Shown piece after piece: positions 1 through 9,517 of a DNA stretch of 32,000 nucleotides (within the stretch, counting starts at the first letter, position 1; each line of letters begins with the position of its first letter). A program made the position numbers and the translations under genes. A model generated the notes under the pieces. The model saw only the letters and a program-made list of their open reading frames with translations. It made no database searches and was not told where the DNA came from. Origin of the DNA: Gemmata obscuriglobus. Its GTDB lineage: Bacteria; Planctomycetota; Planctomycetia; Gemmatales; Gemmataceae. The stretch spans positions 2,250,001 to 2,282,000 of the forward strand of contig NZ_CP042911.1 in assembly GCF_008065095.1 (NCBI RefSeq), read 5' to 3'.

Positions 1-2624
1 TGCTGGAGCGCGCCCGCGAGCTGCTCCCGCTGCACCGGCTTGAGCATGTACCCGACCGCGCCCAGCGCCAGGGCGGTTTGCGCGTAGTCCCCCGCGGAGA
101 CGACGTGGACCGGGACGTGCCGGGTGCGCGCGTCGCGCTTCAGCCGGTCCAGCACCGACAGCCCGGAGTTGTCGGGCAGCCCCACGTCCAGCACCACCGC
201 GCTGGGGCGGTACTGGACGGCGACCGCGAGCCCCTCCTCGGCGGTGGCGGCGACGAGGCACTGGAACCCGAGTTCGTGCGCGAGGTCCACCACGATCCGC
301 GCGAACGGCGCGTCGTCTTCCACGATGAGGATTACCCTGCGGTCGCCGGACAGCTTCTCGCGGTCGTCCTCGACCCGCCGCGCGGCGGGCACGCGGGCGG
401 GCGCCGCCGGGGCCGGGGGCTGGCCCGCGACCGCCGCCGGCGTGTAGGGCGGAACCGTGAGCCTCGGCGCGGGTGCGGGCGGGGCGGCGGGCGCTTCGGC
501 GCGGGGCCGCACGTGGGCCGGGTTGTACGTTGTCGGGATGGTCACGGTGAACGTGCTGCCGCGCCCGGGCTCGCTCGCCAGGTGGATGTCGCCGCCCAGC
601 AGCCGGGCCAGTTCGCGGGCGATCGACAGCCCCAGGCCGGTGCCCCCGTGCTTGCGGTTGGTGGTCCCGTCCGCCTGACGGAACGCCTCGAACACCATCT
701 GCTGCTGGTGCTCCGCGATCCCGATCCCGGTGTCGCGCACCGCGAACGCGATCCGGTCCCCGGGGGCCGCGCTGGCCTCCAGCGCCACCTCCCCGGACTC
801 GGTGAACTTGAGCGCGTTCGACAGCAGGTTCTTGAGCACCTGTTCGAGCCGCTGCCGGTCCGTCTCGATCCCCTCCGGGCACCCCGGGGCGAGCCGGACG
901 GCGAACCCGAGCTTCTTCTCGTCCGCGATCGGCTGGAACACCCGGGTGAGGTCCTCGGCGAGGCTCGCGAGCGGCACCGGGCCGGGCCGCACCTCCATGT
1001 GCCCGGCCTCGATTTTGGACAGGTCCAGGATGTCGTTGATGAGCGCCAGCAGGTCGTTGCCGGCGGCCCGGATGGTCTCCGCGTACCGCACCTGCTCGGC
1101 GGTCAGGTTCCCGTCGCGGTTGTCGGCCAGCAGCTTCGCGAGGATCAGCGACGAGTTCAGCGGGGTCCGCAACTCGTGCGACATGTTGGCCAGGAAGTCG
1201 GACTTGTACCGGCTGGCCCGCTCCAGCTCGCGGGCCTGGACCTGCAGCTCGCTCTTGGCCCGGGTCGCCTCGTCGCGCTGCGCCTCCATCAGTTGCGTCT
1301 GCTCCTCCAGTTGGACGTTCGTTTGCTCCAACTCGGTCTGCTGCTGCTCGAGCCGGGTCTGCGTCTCGCGCAGCGCGCGGCCCTGCTCGTCCAGCTCCTC
1401 GTTCGAGACGCGCAGCTCCTCGGTCTGGGCCTGCAGCTCCTCGCTCTGGCGCTGCGTCTCCTCCAACAGGTCCTTCAGGTGGGCGCGGTAGTTCGCGGAC
1501 CGGACTGCCAGCCCCACGTCCTCGGCGACGCGGTCGAGCAGTTCGGCGGCATCGCCCCGCGGCGCGCGGACGAACCCCAGCTCGATCACCGCGTTGACCG
1601 CGCCGTCTTCCGTCAGCGGGACCACGGCGAGGTGCTCGGGGGTGCCGCGCCCGAGCGCCGAGCCGACCGTCAGGTAGCCCGCCGGGAGGTCGCGCAGCAG
1701 GAACGACCGGCCGGCCTTGATCGCCTGCCCGGCCAGCCCGTCGTCGGGGCCGATCCGGTCCGGCGCGCCGCCCGCCGGGACCCCGTAGGTCGCGACGCGG
1801 CGGAACGTGCCGCCGTCCTTCGCGAAGAACGCCCCGGCGTGCGCGCCCAGGTATTCCGCGAGGAACGCCAGCGCCCGCTCGCCGAGGACGTCGAGCGCCC
1901 GGTCGCCGACCAGCGCCTGCGACAGCCCGGTCTGGCCCGCGAGCAGCCACTCCTGCCGGCGCCCGGCCCGCACCGACCGCCGCACCAGATACCCGACGAC
2001 GCCGGACAGCGCCACACCGAGGACCCCGCTCAGCACCCCGCTGACGACGGTGACGGTGTACGCGGACCCGGCCGCCGCGAGCCGCTCCTTGCGCACCTCG
2101 CGCTCGGTCTGCTCCATTGCTTCGACCTGTGCCCGGACGCTGTCCATCGCGTTCTTCCCGCGGTCGGTCTCGACAGCCGCGCGGGCGGCCTCGAACCCTT
2201 TGGTGCGGCGCACGACGATGGTCTCTTCGAGTTCCCGAATTTTGGTGCGCGCGTGCTCCTTGATCGCGGGGACGCGGGCCGCCTGTTCCGGGTTGTCGGC
2301 GGTGAGCCGCTCGAGGTCTTGCAGCCGCGTGTAGATGTTGCCGACCGCCGCGGTGTGCGGCGCCAGGTACCGCTCGTCGCCGGTGAGAACGAATCCGCGC
2401 TGCCCGGTTTCGGCGTCCTTCAGCAGCGACATCACGTCCTCAAGGGTCGTGATGGTGTCGTGCGTGCGGGCCACCCGTTCCATGCCGCGGCTGAGCGTGC
2501 GCGTGTTGAGGTAGGAGATCGCCCCGCTGATCACGAAGAAGAGCACTACGGTGCCGAGTCCGGCGGACAGCCCGACATCGCCCCCGAACCGCTCCGGCCG
2601 ACCGTTTGCGGCGCTGTTGGGCAT
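1..2624 (-). CDS. hybrid sensor histidine kinase / response regulator (CHASE3 - TM - GAF - coiled coil - HisKA - HATPase_c - REC); C-terminal end runs off the left edge
   Basis: My own reverse-complement translation from the ATG at 2624 gives MPNSAANGRPERFGG... It contains a CHASE3-type LLKDAETGQRGFVLTGDERYLAPH and a long EELQAQTEELRVSNEELDEQ coiled coil. The H-box DFLANMSHELRTPLN has its Met codon at 1184, in frame with 2624. ATPase boxes are VRDTGIGI and GGTGLGLSIAR. The receiver segment is RVILIVEDD...VVLDVGLPDNSG...GYMLKP. There is no stop inside the window, so the ORF is absent from the supplied track. The listed 78..2642 + ORF is its antisense shadow. Confidence 0.85.
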   Translation of the reverse strand, partial: MPNSAANGRPERFGGDVGLSAGLGTVVLFFVISGAISYLNTRTLSRGMERVARTHDTITTLEDVMSLLKDAETGQRGFVLTGDERYLAPHTAAVGNIYTRLQDLERLTADNPEQAARVPAIKEHARTKIRELEETIVVRRTKGFEAARAAVETDRGKNAMDSVRAQVEAMEQTEREVRKERLAAAGSAYTVTVVSGVLSGVLGVALSGVVGYLVRRSVRAGRRQEWLLAGQTGLSQALVGDRALDVLGERALAFLAEYLGAHAGAFFAKDGGTFRRVATYGVPAGGAPDRIGPDDGLAGQAIKAGRSFLLRDLPAGYLTVGSALGRGTPEHLAVVPLTEDGAVNAVIELGFVRAPRGDAAELLDRVAEDVGLAVRSANYRAHLKDLLEETQRQSEELQAQTEELRVSNEELDEQGRALRETQTRLEQQQTELEQTNVQLEEQTQLMEAQRDEATRAKSELQVQARELERASRYKSDFLANMSHELRTPLNSSLILAKLLADNRDGNLTAEQVRYAETIRAAGNDLLALINDILDLSKIEAGHMEVRPGPVPLASLAEDLTRVFQPIADEKKLGFAVRLAPGCPEGIETDRQRLEQVLKNLLSNALKFTESGEVALEASAAPGDRIAFAVRDTGIGIAEHQQQMVFEAFRQADGTTNRKHGGTGLGLSIARELARLLGGDIHLASEPGRGSTFTVTIPTTYNPAHVRPRAEAPAAPPAPAPRLTVPPYTPAAVAGQPPAPAAPARVPAARRVEDDREKLSGDRRVILIVEDDAPFARIVVDLAHELGFQCLVAATAEEGLAVAVQYRPSAVVLDVGLPDNSGLSVLDRLKRDARTRHVPVHVVSAGDYAQTALALGAVGYMLKPVQREQLAGALQ

Positions 2625-2782
2625 ATCTGTGTGCCTCTGTAAGATTCTTGCGCCGCTCGGCGCCGTGGGGCGTTGGGGGAATGTAGTGCCGCGCCGCGTT
2701 CGGGGCAACGAACGGGCCGGCGGTCGCGGGGCCGGAAATTCGTTACAACGGCAACTCGTCCCGACCCGATGGGAGCCCCACG

Positions 2783-3955
2783 ATGCCGGTCGTCCGGAGT
2801 GGCCTCGACCTTCTCTGCGCCTCCGATTTCGCCCCGCTCCGCGACCGCCGGGTCGGGCTCGTGTGCCACCCGGCGTCGGTGGATGTCCGGCTGCGGCACG
2901 CTGCGGAACTTCTAGCGGGGGCGCCCGGCGTTGAACTCCGCGCGCTGTTTGGCCCGGAGCACGGGTTCCACGGCACCGCGCAAGACCTCATCGGCGTCGG
3001 GCACGCGGACGCCGGCGCGCTGCGCGTCCACAGCCTTTACGGGAGCACCTTCGAGAGCCTCAAGCCGACCGCCGAACAGCTCCGCGGGCTCGACGTGCTG
3101 GTCATCGACCTTCAGGACATCGGGACGCGGTACTACACGTTTCAGGCGACGATGCTCTACTGCCTGGAGGCGTGCGCGGAGAGCGGCGTGGCGGTGGTGG
3201 TGCTGGACCGGCCGAACCCGCTCGGCGGGCTCGCGGTGGAAGGTCCCGCGCTGCGCGCGGGGTTCGAGAGCTTCGTCGGGCCGCACAACATTGCCACGCG
3301 GCACGGGCTCACGATGGGCGAACTCGCACTCTTCTATCAAAAGCACCGGGTGCCGAACGTTCAGCTCGAAGTGATTCCGTGTGAGGGCTGGGGGCGCGAC
3401 CTGGAGTTCGAACGGACGGGCCTACCGTGGGTGCTTCCGTCGCCGAACATGCCCACCCCCGACACCGCGACCGTTTACCCGGGGCTGTGCCTGATCGAGG
3501 GGACCAACCTGTCCGAAGGGCGCGGGACGACGCGGCCGTTCGAGTTGGTCGGCGCGCCGTGGCTCGACGGGGCGGAACTGGCCCGGCGCCTGGAGGCCGA
3601 GCGCCTGCCCGGGGTGCGGTTCCGCCCCGCGTGGTTCCGGCCCACATTTCAGAAGTTCGCGGGGCAGGACTGCGGCGGCGTTCAGCTCCACGTCACCGAC
3701 CGCGCGAACTTTTTACCGGTCCGAACAGGGTTGGCGGTTCTCGCGGTAATGTGTGCGCTGTCCGGCACGCGGTTCGCATGGCGGACCGAGGAATACGAAT
3801 TCGTTTCGGACCGCCCCGCGATCGACCTGCTGTTCGGCAGCGACCGTGAACGGCTCGCGCTCGAAGCCGGCGCCTCGTGGCGCCAGGTCGCGAGCGCGTG
3901 GGACGCCGAAGAGGCCGACTTCCGCCAGGTGCGGGAGCCGTCCTTGCTCTACTGA
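2783..3955 (+). CDS. namZ: DUF1343 family protein, exo-beta-N-acetylmuramidase NamZ-like
   Basis: 390-aa ORF with DUF1343 hallmarks: RRVGLVCHPASV, LFGPEHGFHGTAQD, VIDLQDIGTRYYTFQATM, VVVLDRPNPLGG and RHGLTMGELA. GGGAG lies 7 nt upstream of the ATG. It is the first gene of a co-directional MurNAc-type cluster. Confidence 0.8.
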   Translation: MPVVRSGLDLLCASDFAPLRDRRVGLVCHPASVDVRLRHAAELLAGAPGVELRALFGPEHGFHGTAQDLIGVGHADAGALRVHSLYGSTFESLKPTAEQLRGLDVLVIDLQDIGTRYYTFQATMLYCLEACAESGVAVVVLDRPNPLGGLAVEGPALRAGFESFVGPHNIATRHGLTMGELALFYQKHRVPNVQLEVIPCEGWGRDLEFERTGLPWVLPSPNMPTPDTATVYPGLCLIEGTNLSEGRGTTRPFELVGAPWLDGAELARRLEAERLPGVRFRPAWFRPTFQKFAGQDCGGVQLHVTDRANFLPVRTGLAVLAVMCALSGTRFAWRTEEYEFVSDRPAIDLLFGSDRERLALEAGASWRQVASAWDAEEADFRQVREPSLLY

Positions 3956-3993
3956 TCAGACCGCTCTACTGCTTTTCCGCCGGACCACTCCTC

Positions 3994-5526
3994 ATGCCGC
4001 AACTCTTACCGCTCGATCTCGCTATCGTCGGGGTGTACGTCCTCGGGATGACGCTCCTCGGCGTGTGGTTCACCCGCGCGCAGAAGGACCTGCGCACCTA
4101 CTTCGTCGGCGGGCGCAATATCGGCTGGTTCATGGTGCTCGTGTCCATCGTCGCCACCGAGACGAGTGCCGTCACGTTCCTGAGCGTCCCCGGTCTGTCG
4201 TTCAACCCCGCGGGCGGGAACTTCACCTTCCTGCAGTTGTCGTTCGGGTACATCATCGGGCGGTGCCTGGTCGCGTGGCTGCTGCTGCCGCAGTACATGA
4301 ACGGCGAGCTTTTTAGCGCGTACCAGGTGCTCAAGGAGCGGTTCGACCCGTCCGTGCAGCGGGTGGCCAGCGGGCTGTTCCTCCTCACCCGGACCGTTGC
4401 GGACGGGCTCCGCATCTTCCTCACCGCGCTGCTGCTCCAGTTCGTGCTCGGCGGGGTGACGCCGGCGATTATTGTTGTGGGCGTGGTCACGATCGTTTAC
4501 ACCTACCTCGGCGGCATGAAGGCCGTCATTTGGACCGACCTGATCCAGTTCATCATCAAGATCGCCGGGGCGGTCCTCGCGGGCGTGTTCGTGCTGAAGC
4601 TCCTGCCGGGCGGGTGGGACCAGTTCCTGACCGAAGGGGAGGCCGTTGGGAAGTTCCGGCTCATCGACGCGGAGTTCCGGCCCACCGTTGCCCTGAACAT
4701 CTGGGCCGGGGTAATCGGCGGGGCGGTGTTCTCGATGGCCAGCCACGGCGCCGACCAACTCATGGTCCAGCGCTACCTGTGCGCGAAGTCGCTCGGGCAG
4801 GCCCGGCTCGCGCTGGTGCTGAGCGGGTTCGTGGTGCTCGCCCAGTTCCTGCTGTTTCTCGCGGTCGGCGTCGGGATGTACCTGTTGTTAGAGGGCGGAC
4901 AGTTCCCGGAGGCCGCCGGGAAGCGGAACGACGAGGTGTTCGGGCTGTTCATCGTGACGAAGCTCCCGACCGGCGTGGTCGGGGTGCTGGTCGCCGCGGT
5001 GCTGGCCGCGGCGATGTCCACGCTGTCGTCGTCGCTGAACAGCTCGGCGAACGCGGTGGTGACCGACTTCTACCGGCCGCTGCGGCCGAACCGGGGGGAA
5101 GGGCACTACGTGCTGCTTTCGCGTGTGATGACCGCGGCGTGGGGGCTGGCGCAGATGGGAGTGGCTTACGGCGCGTACAAGGCGGGCGGGAACAAGAGCG
5201 TGGTCGAGCAGGTGCTCGCGGTCGCCGGGTTCACGACCGGACTCCTACTCGGATTGTTCCTTCTGGGTAGTACAAAACGGTTTGTTCAATCCTGGGCCGC
5301 ACTGACGGGTCTGGTGTGCGGTTTTGCAACGGTGTTTGCGGTGTGGCTCCCGTCGTCCGGAATAACTGCGGACCTGCCGGTGCCCTCCTTCTATAAGGGG
5401 GCGCTGATCGCGTGGCCGTGGTTCGCCCCGATCGGTGCTGGAACGACGGTGCTGGTCGCGCTCGCGTTGCAAGTGATCGCGTACTGTGTCACCTGGCGCC
5501 GCAAACGCGGCACGTCCGTTGCATAG
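3994..5526 (+). CDS. sodium:solute symporter (SSS) family transporter, candidate MurNAc/amino-sugar importer
   Basis: Polytopic membrane protein with SSS-type N-terminus LAIVGVYVLGMTLLGVWFTRAQKDLRTYFVGGRNIGWF. I start it at internal Met40 of the track ORF 3877..5526, because the upstream 39 aa are Arg/Gly-rich overlap with the namZ 3' end. Its position between namZ and murQ suggests the substrate. Confidence 0.8.
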   Translation: MPQLLPLDLAIVGVYVLGMTLLGVWFTRAQKDLRTYFVGGRNIGWFMVLVSIVATETSAVTFLSVPGLSFNPAGGNFTFLQLSFGYIIGRCLVAWLLLPQYMNGELFSAYQVLKERFDPSVQRVASGLFLLTRTVADGLRIFLTALLLQFVLGGVTPAIIVVGVVTIVYTYLGGMKAVIWTDLIQFIIKIAGAVLAGVFVLKLLPGGWDQFLTEGEAVGKFRLIDAEFRPTVALNIWAGVIGGAVFSMASHGADQLMVQRYLCAKSLGQARLALVLSGFVVLAQFLLFLAVGVGMYLLLEGGQFPEAAGKRNDEVFGLFIVTKLPTGVVGVLVAAVLAAAMSTLSSSLNSSANAVVTDFYRPLRPNRGEGHYVLLSRVMTAAWGLAQMGVAYGAYKAGGNKSVVEQVLAVAGFTTGLLLGLFLLGSTKRFVQSWAALTGLVCGFATVFAVWLPSSGITADLPVPSFYKGALIAWPWFAPIGAGTTVLVALALQVIAYCVTWRRKRGTSVA

Positions 5527-5588
5527 CCGGGTTCACTTCGACAGCTACCATCAGTCCGACGACGCGACCCGGAGGTCGGCGAATTTCC

Positions 5589-7472
5589 ATGGACCACCTG
5601 CAAACCGAAGCGCGCAACCCGGCGTCGACCGAACTCGATGAGATTTCATCACTTCAGTTCGTGCGGCTGATGCTCGGCGAGGACGCGGCGGTCGTTCCGG
5701 CGGTGGCGTCGCAGGCCGAAGCCCTGGCGCGTGGTGTCGAAGTCATCGCCGGCCGGCTCCGGGCCGGTGGGCGGCTCGTCTACATCGGGGCGGGCACGTC
5801 CGGTCGACTCGGCGTACTCGACGCCAGCGAGTGCCCGCCGACGTTCAACGTGCCTCCGGGGCTGGTAGTTGGACTGATTGCGGGCGGCTCCGGCGCGCTG
5901 ACGCGGGCCATTGAGGGGGCCGAAGATAACCCCGAGTTCGGCGTCACGGACCTCAAGGGCATCGCGCTTTCGGCGGCCGACGTGCTCGTCGGGATCGCGA
6001 CGAGCGGTCGCACCCCCTACGTGCTTTCCGCGGTCGATTACGCCCGCTCGGTTGGCGCGTTCACCATCGGGTTGTCGTGCAACCCGGGGGCGGAAATCAT
6101 TTCTCGCGTGGATCTTGCGATCACACCGGTGGTCGGCCCGGAGGTGCTCAGCGGGTCGACGCGGCTGAAGGCCGGGACCGCGACCAAGCTCGTGCTCAAC
6201 GTCCTCAGCACCGGCGCAATGGTCAAACTGGGCAAGACTTACGGCAACCTGATGGTGGACGTTCGCGCCACCAACGAAAAGCTCCGGGTGCGGACCAACC
6301 GCATCGTTCGGGAGGCGACGGGGCTGGACCACACCGCCGCCGACCGCTTGCTGGAGACGTGCGGGCGCGAGCTGAAGACCGCTCTGGTTGCTCAGCTCGC
6401 GGGCGTTTCGGCCGATGACGCGCGTGACCGGCTTCAACGCACGAACGGCCTCGTGCGGGCCGCCATCACGACCAACGGCACCAACGGCAAAAACGGGCAC
6501 CACCACAAGAACGGTCACGCCAAGGCCGCTCCAGAGAACGTGGTTCTTGGGATCGACGGCGGCGGCACGGGTACGGTGGCACTCCTCGCGGTGCCGGACG
6601 CCGGCGCCGAGGGCGGCTGGAGACTGCTCGGGCGCGGCGAGGCCGGGCCGTCGAACCGGCACGCGGTGGGCACGGACGCGGCCCTGGCGGCGCTCAACGA
6701 GGCCACCACAAAGGCGTTCGCCGCGGCGCACCTGCCGCGCGCCTCGGTGCGCGCGGCGTGCCTCGGGCTGGCCGGCGCCGGACGCCCCGGCGACCAGGAA
6801 ATCGTGCGGGAGTGGGCCGCCCGCGTGCGGCTCTCGGCGGCCGTCGAGGTGGTCGAAGACGCGGCCCTGCTGCTGGCCGCCGGGACCCCCGACGGGGTCG
6901 GCGTCGCGGTGGTCGCGGGGACGGGCTCGATGGCTTACGGCCGCCGCGCCGACGGCACAACGACCCGCGCCGGCGGGTGGGGGCCGCTGCTCGGCGACGA
7001 GGGGAGTGGATACTCGCTGGCGCTCGCCGGGCTCCGCGCCGCGGTCCGCGCGGCCGACGGCCGTATCGCGCCCACGCCGCTGACGGAGCGGCTGCTCGCG
7101 GCGCTGAAACTGGCGCGGCCCCAAGAGCTGGTCGAGTTCGTGTACCGCGGGTGCGACCGGGCGGCGCTCGCGGCACTCGCCCCGGTGGTGCTCGACGTTG
7201 CCGAAGAGGGCGACCCGGCCGCCGATCACATCGTGCGCGAGGCCGCGGGCGAACTCGCCGCCGCCGCCGCTGCTGCCGCCAAAGCGCTGGGCTTCGGCGC
7301 GTCCTTCCCGGTCGCCCTCGCCGGCGGGGTGTTCGGCGCGGGCTGCTACCGCGAGCGCTTCCGCGCCGCGCTCGCGGACCGCGGGCTCACCGCCGATCCG
7401 CTGTCATTCGTTCGCGAACCGGCCGAAGGGGCCGTCCGCCGGGCCTTCGGCCGATCGGTTCGCGTCTCCTAA
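5589..7472 (+). CDS. murQ: fusion protein: N-acetylmuramic acid 6-phosphate etherase (MurQ, SIS domain) + BadF/BadG/BcrA/BcrD-type sugar kinase (MurK / GlcNAc-kinase-like)
   Basis: From Met60 of the track ORF: MDHLQTEARNPASTELDE..., GGRLVYIGAGTSGRLGVLDASECPPTF and GSTRLKAGTATKLVLN, which are MurQ/SIS motifs. An Asn/Gly/His linker TNGTNGKNGHHHKNGH follows. The kinase half then shows VLGIDGGGTGT, GPSN, GLAGAG, VVAGTGSMAYG and GGWGPLLGDEGSGYSLA, which are BadF/BadG ATPase motifs. Confidence 0.85.
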   Translation: MDHLQTEARNPASTELDEISSLQFVRLMLGEDAAVVPAVASQAEALARGVEVIAGRLRAGGRLVYIGAGTSGRLGVLDASECPPTFNVPPGLVVGLIAGGSGALTRAIEGAEDNPEFGVTDLKGIALSAADVLVGIATSGRTPYVLSAVDYARSVGAFTIGLSCNPGAEIISRVDLAITPVVGPEVLSGSTRLKAGTATKLVLNVLSTGAMVKLGKTYGNLMVDVRATNEKLRVRTNRIVREATGLDHTAADRLLETCGRELKTALVAQLAGVSADDARDRLQRTNGLVRAAITTNGTNGKNGHHHKNGHAKAAPENVVLGIDGGGTGTVALLAVPDAGAEGGWRLLGRGEAGPSNRHAVGTDAALAALNEATTKAFAAAHLPRASVRAACLGLAGAGRPGDQEIVREWAARVRLSAAVEVVEDAALLLAAGTPDGVGVAVVAGTGSMAYGRRADGTTTRAGGWGPLLGDEGSGYSLALAGLRAAVRAADGRIAPTPLTERLLAALKLARPQELVEFVYRGCDRAALAALAPVVLDVAEEGDPAADHIVREAAGELAAAAAAAAKALGFGASFPVALAGGVFGAGCYRERFRAALADRGLTADPLSFVREPAEGAVRRAFGRSVRVS

Positions 7473-7482
7473 AAGGTGCTTC

Positions 7483-8928
7483 ATGCTGCGATTGCTCCTC
7501 GGGCTCACGGCCCTGGGCCTCTGCGCGCCCGTGCGCGCCGCGGACCCGCCCGCTCTGAAACGCGAGTTCCGCGCGGTCTGGGTCGCCACCGTCTCGAACA
7601 TCGACTGGCCCAGCAAGCCCGGGCTGCCCGCCGACCAGCAGAAAAAAGAGCTGCTCGCGATCCTCGATAACGCGGTCGAACTGAAGCTCAACGCGGTCAT
7701 CTTCCAGGTGCGGCCGATGGCCGACGCGCTCTACGCCTCGGAACTGGAGCCGTGGAGCGAGTACCTGACGGGCCAGATCGGGAAGGCGCCCGGGTACGAC
7801 CCGCTCGCGTTCGCGGTGACCGAGGCGCACAAGCGGGGGCTGGAACTGCACGCGTGGTTCAACCCGTACCGGGCACGCCATCCGTCGGCGAAGTCCCCGG
7901 CACCGGCCGATCACCTGACCAGGAAGCGGCCGGACCTCGCGAAGCCCTACGGCACGCACGCCTGGATGAACCCCACGAACCCCGAGGTGCAGGAGCACTC
8001 GCTCCGCGTGTTCCTGGACGTGGTGAAGCGGTACGACATCGACGGCATCCACATCGACGATTACTTCTACCCGTACAAGGAAAAGGGCACCGACGGGAAG
8101 GTGATCCCGTTCCCCGACGACGACACCTGGGAGGCATACCAGAAGCAGGGCGGCAAGCTGTCCCGCGACGACTGGCGCCGCGACGCGGTGAACGTGTTCG
8201 TCCGCCGGATGTATGAGGAGACCAAGAAGGCGAAGCCGTGGGTGAAGGTGGGCATCAGCCCGTTCGGCATCTGGCGCCCGGGGCACCCCGCGGGCATCGC
8301 AGGGTTGGACCAGTACGCCGAACTGTACGCCGACGCGAAACTGTGGTTCAACGAGGGCTGGGTCGATTACTTCACGCCGCAACTCTACTGGCCGATCGCT
8401 CAGGAGAAGCAGAGCTTCCCGAAGCTGCTGGACTGGTGGGCGGGTGAGAACACGAAGAAGCGGCACCTGTGGCCCGGGTTGTACACCAGCCGCGTGACCG
8501 GCGCCGCGAAGGGGTGGAACGCGAAGGAGATCGCCGACCAGATCGCGGTGACTCGTCAGCGCAGCGACACCGACGGCGCGGTTCACTTCAGTGCGAAAGC
8601 CCTGGTGCGCAACACCGGCGGCATTGCGGACGAACTGAAGCAGGTCTACGCCGAACCGGCCTTGGTGCCCGCGTCCAACTGGCTCAGCCAAGGGGAGCCG
8701 CCCGCGAAGCCGGAGGCGGTTCGGGAGGTGACTGGCGGGAAGGCCGTTCTTCGCGTGAAAACGGCCCCAGGAACGCGATTCGTGGCCGTGCGTGCCCAAA
8801 CGGGCGATCGGTGGGCCGTGAGCGTTTCTGACGCGTCTGGTGCGATTGCAGTGCCCGAGACGGGAAGGATCGTGGTTACGGCGCTGGACCGGATCGGACG
8901 TGAGAGCGAGCCGGTCGAGGTGAAGTAG
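7483..8928 (+). CDS. secreted glycosyl hydrolase-like family 10 (GHL10 / DUF187, YngK-like) protein
   Basis: Signal peptide MLRLLLGLTALGLCAPVRAA, followed by REFRAVWVATVSNIDWPS, NAVIFQVRP, LHAWFNPY and DGIHIDDYFYP, which are typical of GHL10. The start lies 10 nt after the murQ-fusion stop. The N-terminal 95 aa of the track ORF 7198..8928 overlap the previous gene and are rejected. Confidence 0.8.
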   Translation: MLRLLLGLTALGLCAPVRAADPPALKREFRAVWVATVSNIDWPSKPGLPADQQKKELLAILDNAVELKLNAVIFQVRPMADALYASELEPWSEYLTGQIGKAPGYDPLAFAVTEAHKRGLELHAWFNPYRARHPSAKSPAPADHLTRKRPDLAKPYGTHAWMNPTNPEVQEHSLRVFLDVVKRYDIDGIHIDDYFYPYKEKGTDGKVIPFPDDDTWEAYQKQGGKLSRDDWRRDAVNVFVRRMYEETKKAKPWVKVGISPFGIWRPGHPAGIAGLDQYAELYADAKLWFNEGWVDYFTPQLYWPIAQEKQSFPKLLDWWAGENTKKRHLWPGLYTSRVTGAAKGWNAKEIADQIAVTRQRSDTDGAVHFSAKALVRNTGGIADELKQVYAEPALVPASNWLSQGEPPAKPEAVREVTGGKAVLRVKTAPGTRFVAVRAQTGDRWAVSVSDASGAIAVPETGRIVVTALDRIGRESEPVEVK

Positions 8929-8977
8929 CCGGCACGGAATTGGTTGTCGCGGCAGTTTTCTGATTGAGGCTCACCGT

Positions 8978-9023
8978 CAACGAAGCGAGCCGCCGGGAGG
9001 AACCCCGGCGGCTCGCTTCGTTG
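8978..9023. terminator. perfect 20-bp stem / 6-nt loop hairpin between convergent genes (bidirectional terminator candidate)
   Basis: caacgaagcgagccgccggg - aggaac - cccggcggctcgcttcgttg. It lies between the GHL10 stop (8928) and the lipoprotein stop (9035). There is no clear U-tract. Confidence 0.55.
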
Positions 9024-9034
9024 GCGGCTTATCG

Positions 9035-9445
9035 TTATTTCGCTTTGGGAGCGGCTTTGAACTCGGCGGCGGTCATTTGCTTGACAGTGCCGTCCTGAAG
9101 CAAGACGACCCCACCCTTTTCCGCGGCCGCTTTCTCGTGAGCGACAACACCCGTGCTCCCGGGCTGGAGTTTCGCGCCCCAAATGAGGACGTAGGTTTCG
9201 GTAACCAACCCTCGAACACCGGCAGGGTAAGACGGCTCTAGGTACATAATCTCGTCCATCTTGGCCGGCGGGCGGCCCTTATCCTGCTGGTATTGCTCCA
9301 ACAACACCTTCAGGTTTTCAAGCCCTTGATCGGGTGACGGGCCGATCATCCCGGTCGGTTTCGATTCGCCCCCGCCGCAACCGGTTACGGCGAGAATCGA
9401 GGACACAAGAAGGACCGTCATCCACCGAGGTGTATACCGCAGCAT
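9035..9445 (-). CDS. small lipoprotein, unknown function
   Basis: MLRYTPRWMTVLLVSSILAVTGCGG carries a lipobox (VTG|C). It lies about 70 nt downstream of, and co-directional with, the DUF1559 gene. Alternative starts are GTG 9469 and ATG 9421. Confidence 0.6.
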   Translation of the reverse strand: MLRYTPRWMTVLLVSSILAVTGCGGGESKPTGMIGPSPDQGLENLKVLLEQYQQDKGRPPAKMDEIMYLEPSYPAGVRGLVTETYVLIWGAKLQPGSTGVVAHEKAAAEKGGVVLLQDGTVKQMTAAEFKAAPKAK

Positions 9446-9517
9446 TCGTTGCTCCAACGCGAACGGCACGCCCCGACAGTTCCGAGCCGTCTGAGAGCGC
9501 GCCGTTACATTTCGAGG

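What the first reader, a model, noticed from the sequence alone, without database searches (positions are those of the whole stretch)
2783..8928. PTS-independent MurNAc scavenging operon (NamZ - SSS transporter - MurQ/kinase - GHL10) in a planctomycete-like genome
Four tightly spaced co-directional genes encode four functions:
- a DUF1343 exo-N-acetylmuramidase-like enzyme;
- a sodium:solute symporter;
- MurNAc-6-P etherase fused to a BadF/BadG-type kinase;
- a secreted GHL10 hydrolase.
Transporter plus kinase plus etherase is the logic of the PTS-independent MurNAc utilisation locus described in Tannerella (murT-murK-murQ). NamZ is the exo-muramidase described in Bacillus. Planctomycetes were long thought to lack peptidoglycan, so a dedicated muropeptide/MurNAc salvage locus matters for cell-wall recycling or for feeding on the walls of other bacteria.
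Basis: partly seen in the sequence, partly recalled or inferred. Interest (0 to 1): 0.6.

Follow-up and report, generated by a model that had tools for sequence, protein, structure and literature searches.

The report
Gemmata cell-wall sugar (MurNAc) salvage operon
Four adjacent genes in a Gemmata (planctomycete) genome look built to cut bacterial cell-wall glycan, import the acidic wall sugar MurNAc without a PTS and convert it to GlcNAc-6-phosphate; it is a rearranged version of known salvage loci, in a genome where no canonical wall-cutting enzyme family was found.

Summary
Refined genes on the + strand are:
- NamZ/GH171, 2783-3955
- Na+:solute symporter (SSS), 3994-5526
- MurQ etherase fused to a BadF/BadG-type kinase, 5589-7472
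- secreted GHL10 hydrolase, 7483-8928

The gaps are 38, 62 and 10 nt, and a 24-bp hairpin follows the last gene. The genome is a Gemmata. The SSS lies next to murQ-kinase in 21 of 22 planctomycete loci, and the full four-gene order recurs in six Gemmata/Frigoriglobus loci.

1. NamZ has no signal peptide in Gemmataceae, unlike every characterised NamZ. It probably works in the cytoplasm on an imported MurNAc-ended sugar.
2. GHL10 is a clear homologue of two peptidoglycan glycan cleavers, Cwp19 and E. coli DigH.
3. The kinase resembles the chain deposited as MurNAc/GlcNAc kinase (8zo3), not Tannerella MurK.
4. This is the genome's only MurQ, NamZ and GHL10. No GH3, GH20, GH73 or GH25, no lytic transglycosylase family, no amidase, no AmpG and no PTS was found.

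So the operon may be the main wall-glycan turnover route, not only a scavenging one. No experiment exists. The scan noted related SSS/NamZ/MurQ loci before on other DNA. It is a new variant of a known kind.

The parts
2709..2782 (.). Divergent intergenic region between the histidine kinase gene and namZ; presumed promoter region
   Evidence: Sequence. A GGGAG lies 7 nt before the namZ ATG. No sigma-70-like match was found.
2783..3955 (+). NamZ / GH171 (DUF1343) homologue, 390 aa, without a signal peptide; predicted cytoplasmic exo-beta-N-acetylmuramidase
   Evidence: Pfam NamZ_N and NamZ_C. Best PDB match is 4k05, E 4e-67, aligned from query residue 4. The PEHG Glu59 and GRGTTRP Arg motifs are present. 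No start codon or hydrophobic stretch lies upstream, here or in Gemmataceae orthologues. It is the only copy in the genome.
3994..5526 (+). Sodium:solute symporter (SSS/SLC5 family), 510 aa; predicted Na+-coupled importer of MurNAc or a small MurNAc-containing sugar
   Evidence: Pfam SSF and TIGR00813, 201.8 bits against a cut-off of 184. Best PDB match is the sialic-acid symporter SiaT 5nv9, E 5.6e-42. The Na2 and Na3 sites and the carboxylate-binding Ser58/Thr61 are kept, and Arg133 and Arg140 sit on TM3. It lies next to murQ in 21 of 22 planctomycete loci.
5589..6473 (+). MurQ domain (MurNAc-6-phosphate etherase), residues 1-295 of the fusion
   Evidence: TIGR00274, 382.9 bits against a cut-off of 302. 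PDB 4s12 MurQ, E 4e-91. The DASECPP and GAEDN motifs are present. It is the only MurQ over cut-off in the genome.
6474..6533 (+). Low-complexity Asn/Gly/His/Lys linker (NGTNGKNGHHHKNGH...)
   Evidence: The linker differs in sequence between orthologues, but the reading frame stays open.
6534..7472 (+). BadF/BadG-type (ASKHA) sugar kinase domain, residues about 316-627; predicted MurNAc (perhaps also GlcNAc) 6-kinase
   Evidence: Pfam PF01869, 141.5 bits. [quoted passage not shown] The GIDGGGT, GTGS and GDEGSG motifs are present. It forms one ORF with MurQ in seven Gemmatales loci checked.
7483..8928 (+). Secreted GHL10 glycoside hydrolase-like enzyme, 481 aa, with a signal peptide and a C-terminal ~80-aa extra domain; predicted peptidoglycan glycan-strand cleaver
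   Evidence: Pfam GHL10, 239 bits. Cwp19 5oq2, E 8.6e-87. 37% identical to E. coli DigH, E 3e-67. The proposed Cwp19 active-site residues are kept. It is the only copy in the genome.
8974..9027 (.). Perfect 24-bp stem-loop between convergent genes; likely bidirectional terminator that ends the operon
   Evidence: -63.2 kcal/mol, z -6.63, and 0 of 200 shuffles fold as well.

Best explanation
This is a PTS-independent operon for breaking down and re-using peptidoglycan sugar in a Gemmata.

Proposed route:
1. The Sec-exported GHL10 enzyme cuts wall glycan strands in the periplasm. It probably cuts MurNAc-GlcNAc bonds next to peptide-free MurNAc, by lytic-transglycosylase or muramidase chemistry, as its homologues Cwp19 and DigH do.
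2. The Na+-coupled SSS imports a carboxylate-bearing wall sugar: MurNAc, or a small MurNAc-ended saccharide.
3. The signal-less NamZ removes terminal beta-MurNAc inside the cell.
4. The kinase half of the fusion protein phosphorylates MurNAc at O6.
5. The MurQ half of the same polypeptide removes the lactyl ether, giving GlcNAc-6-P and D-lactate.
6. GlcNAc-6-P then enters NagA-like and NagB-PIG-L enzymes encoded elsewhere, or goes back into wall synthesis.

What is shown here: gene order, domain identities, conserved motifs, conserved synteny, absence of a signal peptide on NamZ, single-copy status, and absence of PTS, AmpG and NagZ.

What is inferred: every substrate and every reaction. My odds are about 0.75 for the overall function and about 0.85 for steps 4-5. 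They are about 0.6 for GHL10 acting on peptidoglycan here, and about 0.45 for NamZ acting in the cytoplasm on an imported MurNAc-ended di- or oligosaccharide.

Whether the wall being recycled is the cell's own or comes from other bacteria is open.
For: - Domain and equivalog matches.
- MurQ and a sugar kinase sit in one ORF in seven Gemmatales loci (six titled Gemmata, Frigoriglobus, Gemmataceae or Planctomycetota, plus L016). They are adjacent but separate in Pirellulales. They are fused in the opposite order in a Methylomirabilota MAG. This is a Rosetta-stone link between the two steps.
- The kinase's nearest solved relative is a MurNAc/GlcNAc kinase.
- The SSS lies next to murQ in 21 of 22 planctomycete loci, including divergent arrangements. 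SSS-kinase-MurQ-NamZ clusters also occur in four gammaproteobacteria.
- The SSS keeps SiaT's Na2 and Na3 sites and its carboxylate-binding Ser/Thr. It has two invariant TM3 arginines but lacks SiaT's sialate-specific Gln82 and Arg135.
- GHL10 is homologous to Cwp19 (E 9e-87) and DigH (37% identity), with the proposed active-site residues intact. Both are published peptidoglycan glycan cleavers (PMC6016235, PMC12288456).
- NamZ is signal-less in all Gemmataceae orthologues.
- Ktedonobacter has ABC importer - signal-less NamZ - AnmK - MurQ - GH3. This is a precedent for intracellular NamZ.
- The genome has no PTS EIIC, AmpG, GH3, GH20 or GH73. It has AnmK, NagA-like genes and a NagB-PIG-L fusion.
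Against: - There are no expression or biochemical data for any of the four proteins.
- The SSS subfamily, with identical pocket residues, is present in 158 of 251 Bacteroidota genomes. In the six loci whose neighbours I annotated it sits among housekeeping genes, and only 1 of 30 loci shows a pathway gene (NamZ) within 1.5 kb. Its substrate need not be MurNAc.
- Orthology to Tannerella MurT was not tested.
- An exo-muramidase needs MurNAc at the non-reducing end, yet no enzyme that removes GlcNAc was found. Cwp19-type cleavage leaves GlcNAc, not MurNAc, at that end.
- In Bythopirellula, NamZ carries a signal peptide although the SSS pocket is the same. This argues for free MurNAc as the transported species.
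- NamZ and GHL10 are each missing from some Gemmataceae loci.
- A Deinococcus GHL10 has been reported to act on starch (title of PMC9967864).
Confidence: 0.72

Rival explanations
1. The pathway is the same, but NamZ works outside the cytoplasm, as in Bacillus and Tannerella. It would be exported by a route that needs no N-terminal signal, or released by lysis. The SSS then imports only free MurNAc and/or anhMurNAc.
For: - All characterised NamZ enzymes are extracytoplasmic (PMC8054146; bioRxiv 10.1101/2021.12.02.470905).
- The Bythopirellula orthologue has a signal peptide.
- SSS pocket residues are identical in Gemmataceae and Pirellulales.
- Known SSS substrates are small, and Tannerella MurT takes free MurNAc (PMC7670621).
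Against: - No signal peptide or upstream coding potential exists in any of 11 Gemmataceae orthologues.
- Signal-less NamZ genes sit beside cytoplasmic MurQ and AnmK, and beside ABC oligosaccharide-type importers, in Ktedonobacter and Lederbergia.
Confidence: 0.25
2. The locus is chiefly the cell's own wall-growth and turnover machinery. GHL10 would be the main, perhaps the only, glycan-strand-cleaving autolysin of Gemmata, and the other three genes would recover what it releases. On this view it is not a system for feeding on other bacteria's walls.
For: - GHL10, NamZ and MurQ are single-copy.
- Twelve canonical wall glycosidase, lytic-transglycosylase and amidase families give no hit in the complete genome.
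- AnmK is present and needs a source of anhydro-MurNAc, and Cwp19 has lytic-transglycosylase activity (PMC6016235).
- DigH acts at the division site in E. coli (PMC12288456).
Against: - GHL10 is missing from several Gemmataceae loci that keep the SSS and MurQ-kinase (L011, L015, L020). It was not searched for elsewhere in those genomes.
- Divergent hydrolases could escape Pfam models.
- Nothing here tells own wall from foreign wall.
Confidence: 0.4
3. The operon is not about peptidoglycan. GHL10 would cut another glycan, for example an alpha-glucan as claimed for Deinococcus DogH, and the SSS would import an unrelated carboxylate. Only the MurQ-kinase gene would serve wall recycling, fed by AnmK.
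For: - The specificity of GHL10 is poorly defined, and a starch-active member is reported (title of PMC9967864; I did not read its body).
- SSS orthologues in Bacteroidota are not linked to MurQ.
Against: - The synteny of SSS with murQ-kinase survives rearrangements across Planctomycetota.
- NamZ, whose only known activity is on MurNAc glycosides, sits in the same operon.
- P0004 is closer to the two peptidoglycan-active GHL10 enzymes, and their proposed active-site residues are intact.
- Similar SSS-kinase-MurQ-NamZ clusters occur in gammaproteobacteria.
Confidence: 0.07

Closest known systems
Tannerella forsythia murT-murK-murQ, part of the Tanf_08345-08385 peptidoglycan salvage operon (also holds ampG and namZ1)
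   Same: - PTS-independent logic: a sodium-symporter-superfamily transporter, a PF01869 kinase and the MurQ etherase.
- A GH171 NamZ gene lies in the same cluster (PMC5790795, PMC7670621, bioRxiv 10.1101/2021.12.02.470905).
   Different: - Here kinase and etherase are one polypeptide, in the order MurQ then kinase.
- The kinase domain does not detectably match the Tannerella MurK structures at E 1e-3 and instead matches 8zo3.
- NamZ lacks the signal peptide.
- There is no AmpG.
- A GHL10 gene is added.
- Unlike Tannerella, which lacks MurA/MurB (PMC7670621), this organism makes its own peptidoglycan (MurNAc and GlcNAc shown in G. obscuriglobus glycan, PMC4432640; MurA/MurB not searched here).
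- Orthology of the SSS to MurT is untested.
Bacillus subtilis murQ-murR-murP-amiE-nagZ-namZ operon
   Same: - MurQ and NamZ are encoded together for MurNAc recovery.
- NamZ cleaves MurNAc-GlcNAc (PMC8054146).
   Different: - Bacillus uses a PTS (MurP), so it needs no kinase.
- Its NamZ, NagZ and AmiE are secreted.
- Gemmata has no PTS, no NagZ and no amidase hit.
- Its NamZ is signal-less.
8zo3-type MurNAc/GlcNAc kinase (the molecule name matches the Clostridium acetobutylicum MurK of the literature)
   Same: - It is the best solved relative of the kinase domain: E 1e-36, aligned over about 275 residues with shared ATP and sugar motifs.
- C. acetobutylicum MurK is published as acting on both MurNAc and GlcNAc (cited in PMC5790795).
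   Different: - It is a stand-alone 306-aa enzyme.
- Here the domain is fused behind MurQ.
- The genome also has a 50%-identical stand-alone paralogue next to AnmK, so the two may have split the two substrates between them.
GHL10 enzymes Cwp19 (Clostridioides difficile) and DigH/YddW (E. coli)
   Same: - Same catalytic domain: E 9e-87 to Cwp19 and 37% identity to DigH.
- The proposed active-site residues are kept (Trp, Gln, Trp/Arg of WFNPYR, the DD-Y motif, PQLYW, FSAK).
- All are exported.
   Different: - Cwp19 carries CWB2 anchoring repeats and DigH is a lipoprotein, whereas this protein has a different ~80-aa C-terminal domain.
- Neither known enzyme is encoded in a MurNAc catabolic operon.
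- The bond cleaved by DigH is still undecided (PMC12288456).
Staphylococcus aureus MurP-MupG route for the disaccharide MurNAc-GlcNAc
   Same: It would share the idea of importing a MurNAc-ended disaccharide and splitting it inside the cell before MurQ acts (PMC6262408). This is an analogy only.
   Different: - S. aureus uses a PTS and a 6-phospho-muramidase of another family (MupG).
- Here an unphosphorylated sugar would be split by a GH171 enzyme and phosphorylated afterwards. This has not been shown.

Membership tests
GH171 / NamZ exo-beta-N-acetylmuramidase | Both Pfam domains (NamZ_N, NamZ_C) over the gathering scores | tested here: met
   246.9 and 193.6 bits against cut-offs of 26.9 and 25. 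E 4e-67 to B. fragilis 4k05.
GH171 / NamZ exo-beta-N-acetylmuramidase | Putative catalytic Glu at the tip of beta-2 (Glu92 in B. subtilis) and the conserved C-domain Arg (Arg279) | tested here: met
   The PEHG motif puts Glu at 59, and GRGTTRP starts at 246. Both positions are offset by about 33 residues from the B. subtilis numbering given in PMC8054146. No direct alignment to the B. subtilis sequence was made.
GH171 / NamZ exo-beta-N-acetylmuramidase | Secretion signal, present in all characterised members (BsNamZ, TfNamZ1-3) | tested here: not met
   The protein starts 3 residues before the first structured element. There is no upstream start and no hydrophobic segment, here or in 11 Gemmataceae orthologues.
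GH171 / NamZ exo-beta-N-acetylmuramidase | Hydrolysis of pNP-MurNAc or MurNAc-GlcNAc | not testable with these tools
   Needs an enzyme assay.
MurQ (MurNAc-6-phosphate etherase) | Score over the NCBIfam equivalog cut-off | tested here: met
   TIGR00274, 382.9 bits against 302. E 4e-91 to MurQ structure 4s12.
MurQ (MurNAc-6-phosphate etherase) | The two catalytic glutamates (Glu83 and Glu114 in E. coli numbering, recalled from memory) | tested here: inconclusive
   Glu81 in DASECPP and Glu112 in GAEDN are present, and they are conserved in the 4s12 alignment. Their equivalence to the E. coli residues rests on my memory of the literature.
BcrAD/BadFG-type N-acetyl-hexosamine kinases (MurK/NagK group) | PF01869 over cut-off, with the ASKHA phosphate and sugar motifs | tested here: met
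   141.5 bits against 31.5. GIDGGGT, GTGS and GDEGSG are present. The best PDB match is a MurNAc/GlcNAc kinase.
BcrAD/BadFG-type N-acetyl-hexosamine kinases (MurK/NagK group) | Room for the lactyl ether, i.e. no bulky Glu/His at the position of S133-P134-L135 in Tannerella MurK | tested here: inconclusive
   I take the equivalent segment to be GWGPLLGDEGSG, which has no Glu or His before the GDEGS motif. This placement is my own reading, not an alignment, because Tannerella MurK was not a PDB hit. Human NagK also lacks the bulky residue (PMC10465942), so the feature does not discriminate.
Tannerella MurT-type MurNAc transporter | Sequence orthology to Tanf_08375 | not tested
   The MurT sequence could not be obtained with these tools. 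Bacteroidota murK-murQ loci that I fetched showed no P0002-like gene alongside.
Sodium:solute symporter family (SSS/SLC5) | Family HMMs over cut-off and conserved Na2 site residues | tested here: met
   SSF, 124.8 bits, and TIGR00813, 201.8 bits against 184. Ala54, Ser342 and Thr343 (Na2) and Asp182, Ser345 and Ser346 (Na3) align with SiaT.
SiaT sialic-acid symporters (rival assignment) | Sialate-binding residues Thr58, Ser60, Thr63, Gln82 and Arg135 | tested here: not met
   Ser and Thr are kept (Ser58, Thr61). Thr58 aligns with Glu56, Gln82 with Ser83 and Arg135 with Ala136.
PutP / PanF / ActP / MctC symporters (rival assignments) | Score over the NCBIfam equivalog cut-offs | tested here: not met
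   94 against 515, 63 against 328, 28 against 1099 and 30 against 670 bits.
GHL10 (PF02638) peptidoglycan glycan cleavers (Cwp19, DigH) | Domain over cut-off and the proposed Cwp19 active-site residues (Trp36, Gln77, Trp127, Arg132, Asp195/196, Tyr197, Ser250, Gln295, Tyr297, Phe367-Ser368) | tested here: met
   239.3 bits. The motifs IDWP, FQVRP, AWFNPYR, IDDYFYP, ISPFGIW, PQLYWP and HFSAK are all present.
GHL10 (PF02638) peptidoglycan glycan cleavers (Cwp19, DigH) | Activity on peptidoglycan or denuded glycan | not testable with these tools
   Needs digestion of sacculi with LC-MS of the products.

The most novel reading that the evidence does not exclude
I found none of the canonical lytic transglycosylases, glucosaminidases, lysozymes or MurNAc-L-Ala amidases in this Gemmata genome. 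In such a genome this four-gene operon could be the organism's whole wall-glycan turnover machinery.

On this reading GHL10 is the sole strand-cutting autolysin and also the source of anhydro-MurNAc for AnmK. A MurNAc-ended di- or oligosaccharide enters through an SSS transporter and is split in the cytoplasm by a signal-less GH171 enzyme. The sugar then passes to a fused kinase-etherase.

This route has not been described in any bacterium.
Probability: 0.22. Interest if true: 0.75.

Novelty: new variant of a known kind. Interest (0 to 1): 0.5.

Why it matters
Peptidoglycan was shown in Planctomycetes only in 2015. How these budding, FtsZ-less bacteria cut and recycle their wall is unknown.

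This locus gives four concrete, single-copy genes to test in Gemmata, for which genetic tools have been published.

It also offers three things of wider use:
- a natural MurQ-kinase fusion, which supports the functional coupling of MurNAc kinase and etherase outside Bacteroidota;
- a clade of signal-less GH171 enzymes, which suggests an intracellular exo-muramidase step;
- a genomic setting that could settle what bond GHL10 enzymes (Cwp19, DigH) cut.

If the operon is only a routine salvage path, it is still the first candidate MurNAc route for the phylum. I found no paper describing it.

Tried and rejected
1. Testing whether the SSS is an orthologue of Tannerella MurT. I could not obtain the MurT sequence. 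One search went to the wrong group: the locus titled 'Bacteroidales' (L016) turned out to belong to a planctomycete order. I searched 251 Bacteroidota genomes with MurQ and with the SSS and fetched 16 Bacteroidota murQ loci. Five of them show a kinase hit beside murQ, and none of those has a P0002-like transporter beside the pair. Only weak (25-28%) SSS genes lie next to MurQ, in two loci. The closest Bacteroidota SSS family (38-45% identity) lay in housekeeping contexts in the loci I annotated. The result is inconclusive, not negative.
2. The upstream hybrid histidine kinase as a dedicated regulator. It is conserved only in G. algarum, so I do not count it as part of the system.
3. Sigma-70 promoter scan: nothing was found. 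This is uninformative for Planctomycetes.
4. Reading kinase specificity from the lactyl-pocket residues of Tannerella MurK. The feature does not discriminate.
5. The NagA-like gene 16 kb upstream as a member of the operon. Its neighbours are unrelated.
6. A literature search for a described MurQ-kinase fusion or a planctomycete MurNAc pathway found none in the held library.
7. I ran no structure prediction and no complex prediction. The sequence matches to solved structures were already strong.

Full report
**What is there**

The window is 60-75% G+C. Between 2783 and 8928 lie four + strand genes with these Pfam matches:
- NamZ_N + NamZ_C
- SSF
- SIS domains + BcrAD_BadFG in one ORF
- GHL10

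NCBIfam places the first 295 residues of the third protein over the equivalog cut-off for MurNAc-6-phosphate etherase (TIGR00274, 382.9 bits against 302).

Reading the junctions and translating gives these genes:
- NamZ, 2783-3955 (390 aa)
- SSS, 3994-5526 (510 aa)
- MurQ-kinase, 5589-7472 (627 aa), with an Asn/Gly/His-rich linker at residues 296-315
- GHL10, 7483-8928 (481 aa), with an N-terminal Sec signal peptide

The gaps are 38, 62 and 10 nt.

The gene upstream is a divergent hybrid histidine kinase on the - strand. Downstream, a perfect 24-bp hairpin separates the block from convergent genes. Terminator-like sites in the scanned stretch are no more frequent than in shuffled sequence.

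**Whose genome**

The window is bases 2,250,001-2,282,000 of a single 8,999,201-bp contig that is 99.5% complete. The nearest named record is Gemmata algarum JC673, with 95-99% protein identity over the four genes.

**Conservation**

I fetched 80 loci with the fusion protein and scored them by tblastn.
- The full order NamZ-SSS-MurQ/kinase-GHL10 recurs in six Gemmata/Frigoriglobus loci (L001, L003-L007).
- Three loci lack NamZ (L002, L008, L010).
- Three lack GHL10 (L011, L015, L020).
- In Pirellulales (L018, L021, L025) the SSS is divergent to murQ.
- In all, the SSS adjoins murQ in 21 of 22 planctomycete loci; the exception is L014.

MurQ and kinase form one open frame in seven Gemmatales loci checked: six titled Gemmata, Frigoriglobus, Gemmataceae or Planctomycetota, plus L016. 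They are separate adjacent genes in Pirellulales. In a Methylomirabilota MAG they are fused in the reverse order.

More than 100 full-length fused homologues at 61-81% identity exist in public data. The source names they carry point to Planctomycetota, apart from one 'Bacteroidales' and one plain 'bacterium' label. They are annotated only as 'MurNAc-6-P etherase'.

Four gammaproteobacteria carry SSS(28%)-kinase-MurQ-NamZ clusters.

The SSS orthologue is present in about half of 200 genomes of the Gemmata order.

**The individual proteins**

*MurQ domain.* E 4e-91 to a solved MurQ.

[quoted passage not shown] Tannerella MurK is not hit at 1e-3. Tannerella MurK is itself a PF01869 protein. It is only 26.7% identical to the Clostridium enzyme, which acts on both sugars (PMC5790795).

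*GHL10.*
- E 8.6e-87 to the catalytic domain of Cwp19.
- 37% identity to E. coli DigH.
- All residues proposed for the Cwp19 active site are present.
- Cwp19 cuts the MurNAc-GlcNAc bond with lytic-transglycosylase/muramidase chemistry. The reducing-end products identified end in peptide-free MurNAc (PMC6016235).
- DigH is specific for denuded glycans, and its bond is undecided (PMC12288456).

*SSS.*
- It passes only the generic SSS models and is far below the PutP, PanF, ActP and MctC cut-offs.
- Its best solved relative is the sialic-acid symporter SiaT.
- Mapped on the SiaT structure paper, it keeps both Na+ sites and the Ser/Thr pair that holds the substrate carboxylate.
- It has Glu, Ser and Ala in place of Thr58, Gln82 and Arg135.
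- Two arginines on TM3 (133 and 140) are invariant in all orthologues and in the MurQ-linked SSS genes of other phyla.
- This fits a carboxylated sugar that is not sialate. It does not prove MurNAc.

*NamZ.*
- E 4e-67 to B. fragilis 4k05, aligned from query residue 4.
- The PEHG glutamate and the GRGTTRP arginine are present.
- There is no signal peptide. No start codon lies upstream.
- In 11 Gemmataceae orthologues the upstream sequence is unconserved and not hydrophobic.
- All characterised NamZ enzymes carry predicted signal peptides and act, or are proposed to act, outside the cytoplasm (PMC8054146; bioRxiv 10.1101/2021.12.02.470905).
- Gammaproteobacterial neighbours have signal or lipoprotein leaders.
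- The Bythopirellula orthologue is a secreted beta-lactamase-family-NamZ fusion.
- Signal-less NamZ genes also occur in Ktedonobacter, inside an ABC importer-NamZ-AnmK-MurQ-GH3 cluster, and in Paenibacillus and Lederbergia.
- So an intracellular GH171 clade is plausible, and to my knowledge it is uncharacterised.

**The rest of the genome**

Single copy:
- NamZ
- GHL10
- MurQ

Present elsewhere:
- AnmK, convergent with a stand-alone BadF/G kinase that is 50% identical to the fused one
- two NagA-like genes
- a NagB-PIG-L fusion

Not found at E <= 1e-3, with the controls responding in model genomes:
- PTS EIIC and AmpG
- GH3, GH20, GH73 and GH25
- SLT, SLT_2, MltA, YceG/MltG, DPBB_1/RlpA and SpoIID
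- Amidase_2 and Amidase_3

A tblastn with a Ktedonobacter GH3 also found nothing. The lack of AmiA/AmiB and NlpD in Planctomycetes, and of EnvC across the PVC group, was noted before (PMC5147048). MurNAc and GlcNAc in polymeric strands have been shown in G. obscuriglobus (PMC4432640).

**Mechanism**

The best-supported reading runs as follows.
1. Secreted GHL10 cuts wall glycan.
2. The SSS imports MurNAc or a small MurNAc-ended sugar with Na+.
3. NamZ removes terminal MurNAc, probably inside the cell.
4. The fusion protein phosphorylates MurNAc and removes its lactyl ether.
5. GlcNAc-6-P goes on to catabolism or back to wall synthesis.

The kinase-etherase steps are the firmest, because they rest on the equivalog score, the fusion and independent fusions or adjacency in other phyla.

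The weakest points:
- the transported species;
- the site of NamZ action;
- the absence of any enzyme that would expose MurNAc at a non-reducing end.

Cwp19-type cleavage leaves GlcNAc at that end. If GHL10 here were a glucosaminidase, it would yield MurNAc-GlcNAc. A signal-less NamZ and a dual MurNAc/GlcNAc kinase would then make a complete route without NagZ. That is a prediction, not a finding.

Because this is the only MurQ, the product of AnmK must also pass through the fusion. The locus therefore serves recycling of the cell's own wall at least as plausibly as scavenging.

**Comparison and novelty**

The locus works like the Tannerella murTKQ system and the Bacillus murQ...namZ operon. 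It differs in five respects:
- the gene fusion;
- the kinase type;
- the signal-less NamZ;
- the GHL10 partner;
- the absence of AmpG, NagZ and amidases.

I found no paper on a MurQ-kinase fusion, or on MurNAc recycling in Planctomycetes, in the held library. Databases already name the genes. Earlier notes of this scan describe related SSS/NamZ/MurQ loci on other DNA.

I rate it a new variant of a known kind, of moderate interest.

Noticed in passing
own genome, whole (G000:C1): No hit for 12 canonical peptidoglycan-cleaving families, nor for AmpG or PTS EIIC, in a 99.5%-complete 9-Mb genome that has peptidoglycan and AnmK. The 12 families are GH3, GH20, GH73, GH25, SLT, SLT_2, MltA, YceG/MltG, DPBB_1/RlpA, SpoIID, Amidase_2 and Amidase_3. 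It is unclear what cuts and trims the wall.
   Followed up: partly
own genome G000:C1:989199-992238 (L093 5053-6387 + and about 7331-8320 -): AnmK lies convergent with a stand-alone BadF/BadG kinase that is 50% identical to the kinase domain of the MurQ fusion. It may be a GlcNAc kinase paralogue, or a second MurNAc kinase.
   Followed up: partly
own genome G000:C1:8248274-8250145: A NagB (glucosamine-6-P deaminase)-PIG-L deacetylase fusion, 51% identical to a Bacteroidota one (L204 3735-5660). It is a likely downstream step for GlcNAc-6-P.
   Followed up: no
L018 3896-6262 (-), Bythopirellula MAG: A secreted fusion of a PF00144 beta-lactamase/PBP-family domain (SxxK motif SITK) with NamZ. It lies beside a divergent SSS and separate murQ and kinase genes. 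Gemmata has a 44%-identical stand-alone copy of the beta-lactamase part at C1:1891823-1892902.
   Followed up: partly
L022 1943-10873, Ktedonobacter robiniae: A cluster of SBP + two ABC permeases, signal-less NamZ, AnmK, MurQ and GH3. It looks like a cytoplasmic pathway for imported wall oligosaccharides.
   Followed up: partly
L069 3418-5211, Methylomirabilota MAG: Kinase and MurQ appear fused in the opposite order (kinase first), with no stop codon across 1794 nt. This would be an independent fusion event.
   Followed up: partly
L016 / genome G001: The record is titled 'uncultured Bacteroidales bacterium', but its order-level relatives in the genome collection carry SSS genes up to 97% identical to the Gemmata one. 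The title and the collection's classification disagree.
   Followed up: no
window 9035-9469 (-): A 144-aa lipoprotein-like gene with no Pfam match lies convergent just after GHL10. Homologues (33-48% identity) sit at the same place in eight other Gemmata/Frigoriglobus loci, and upstream of murQ in L014. It may simply belong to the neighbouring DUF1559 gene.
   Followed up: partly
L164-L192 (Bacteroidota genomes): An SSS subfamily 38-45% identical to the Gemmata transporter is present in 158 of 251 Bacteroidota genomes. The aligned members share nearly all of its putative pocket residues (E56, T57, S58, T61, R133, D137, R140). In the loci I annotated it lies next to housekeeping genes (DNA ligase, Ham1, SnoaL-like). 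Its substrate is unknown.
   Followed up: partly
window 3-2708 (-): A hybrid histidine kinase/response regulator lies divergent to the operon. It is conserved at this place only in G. algarum, so it is probably not a dedicated regulator.
   Followed up: yes
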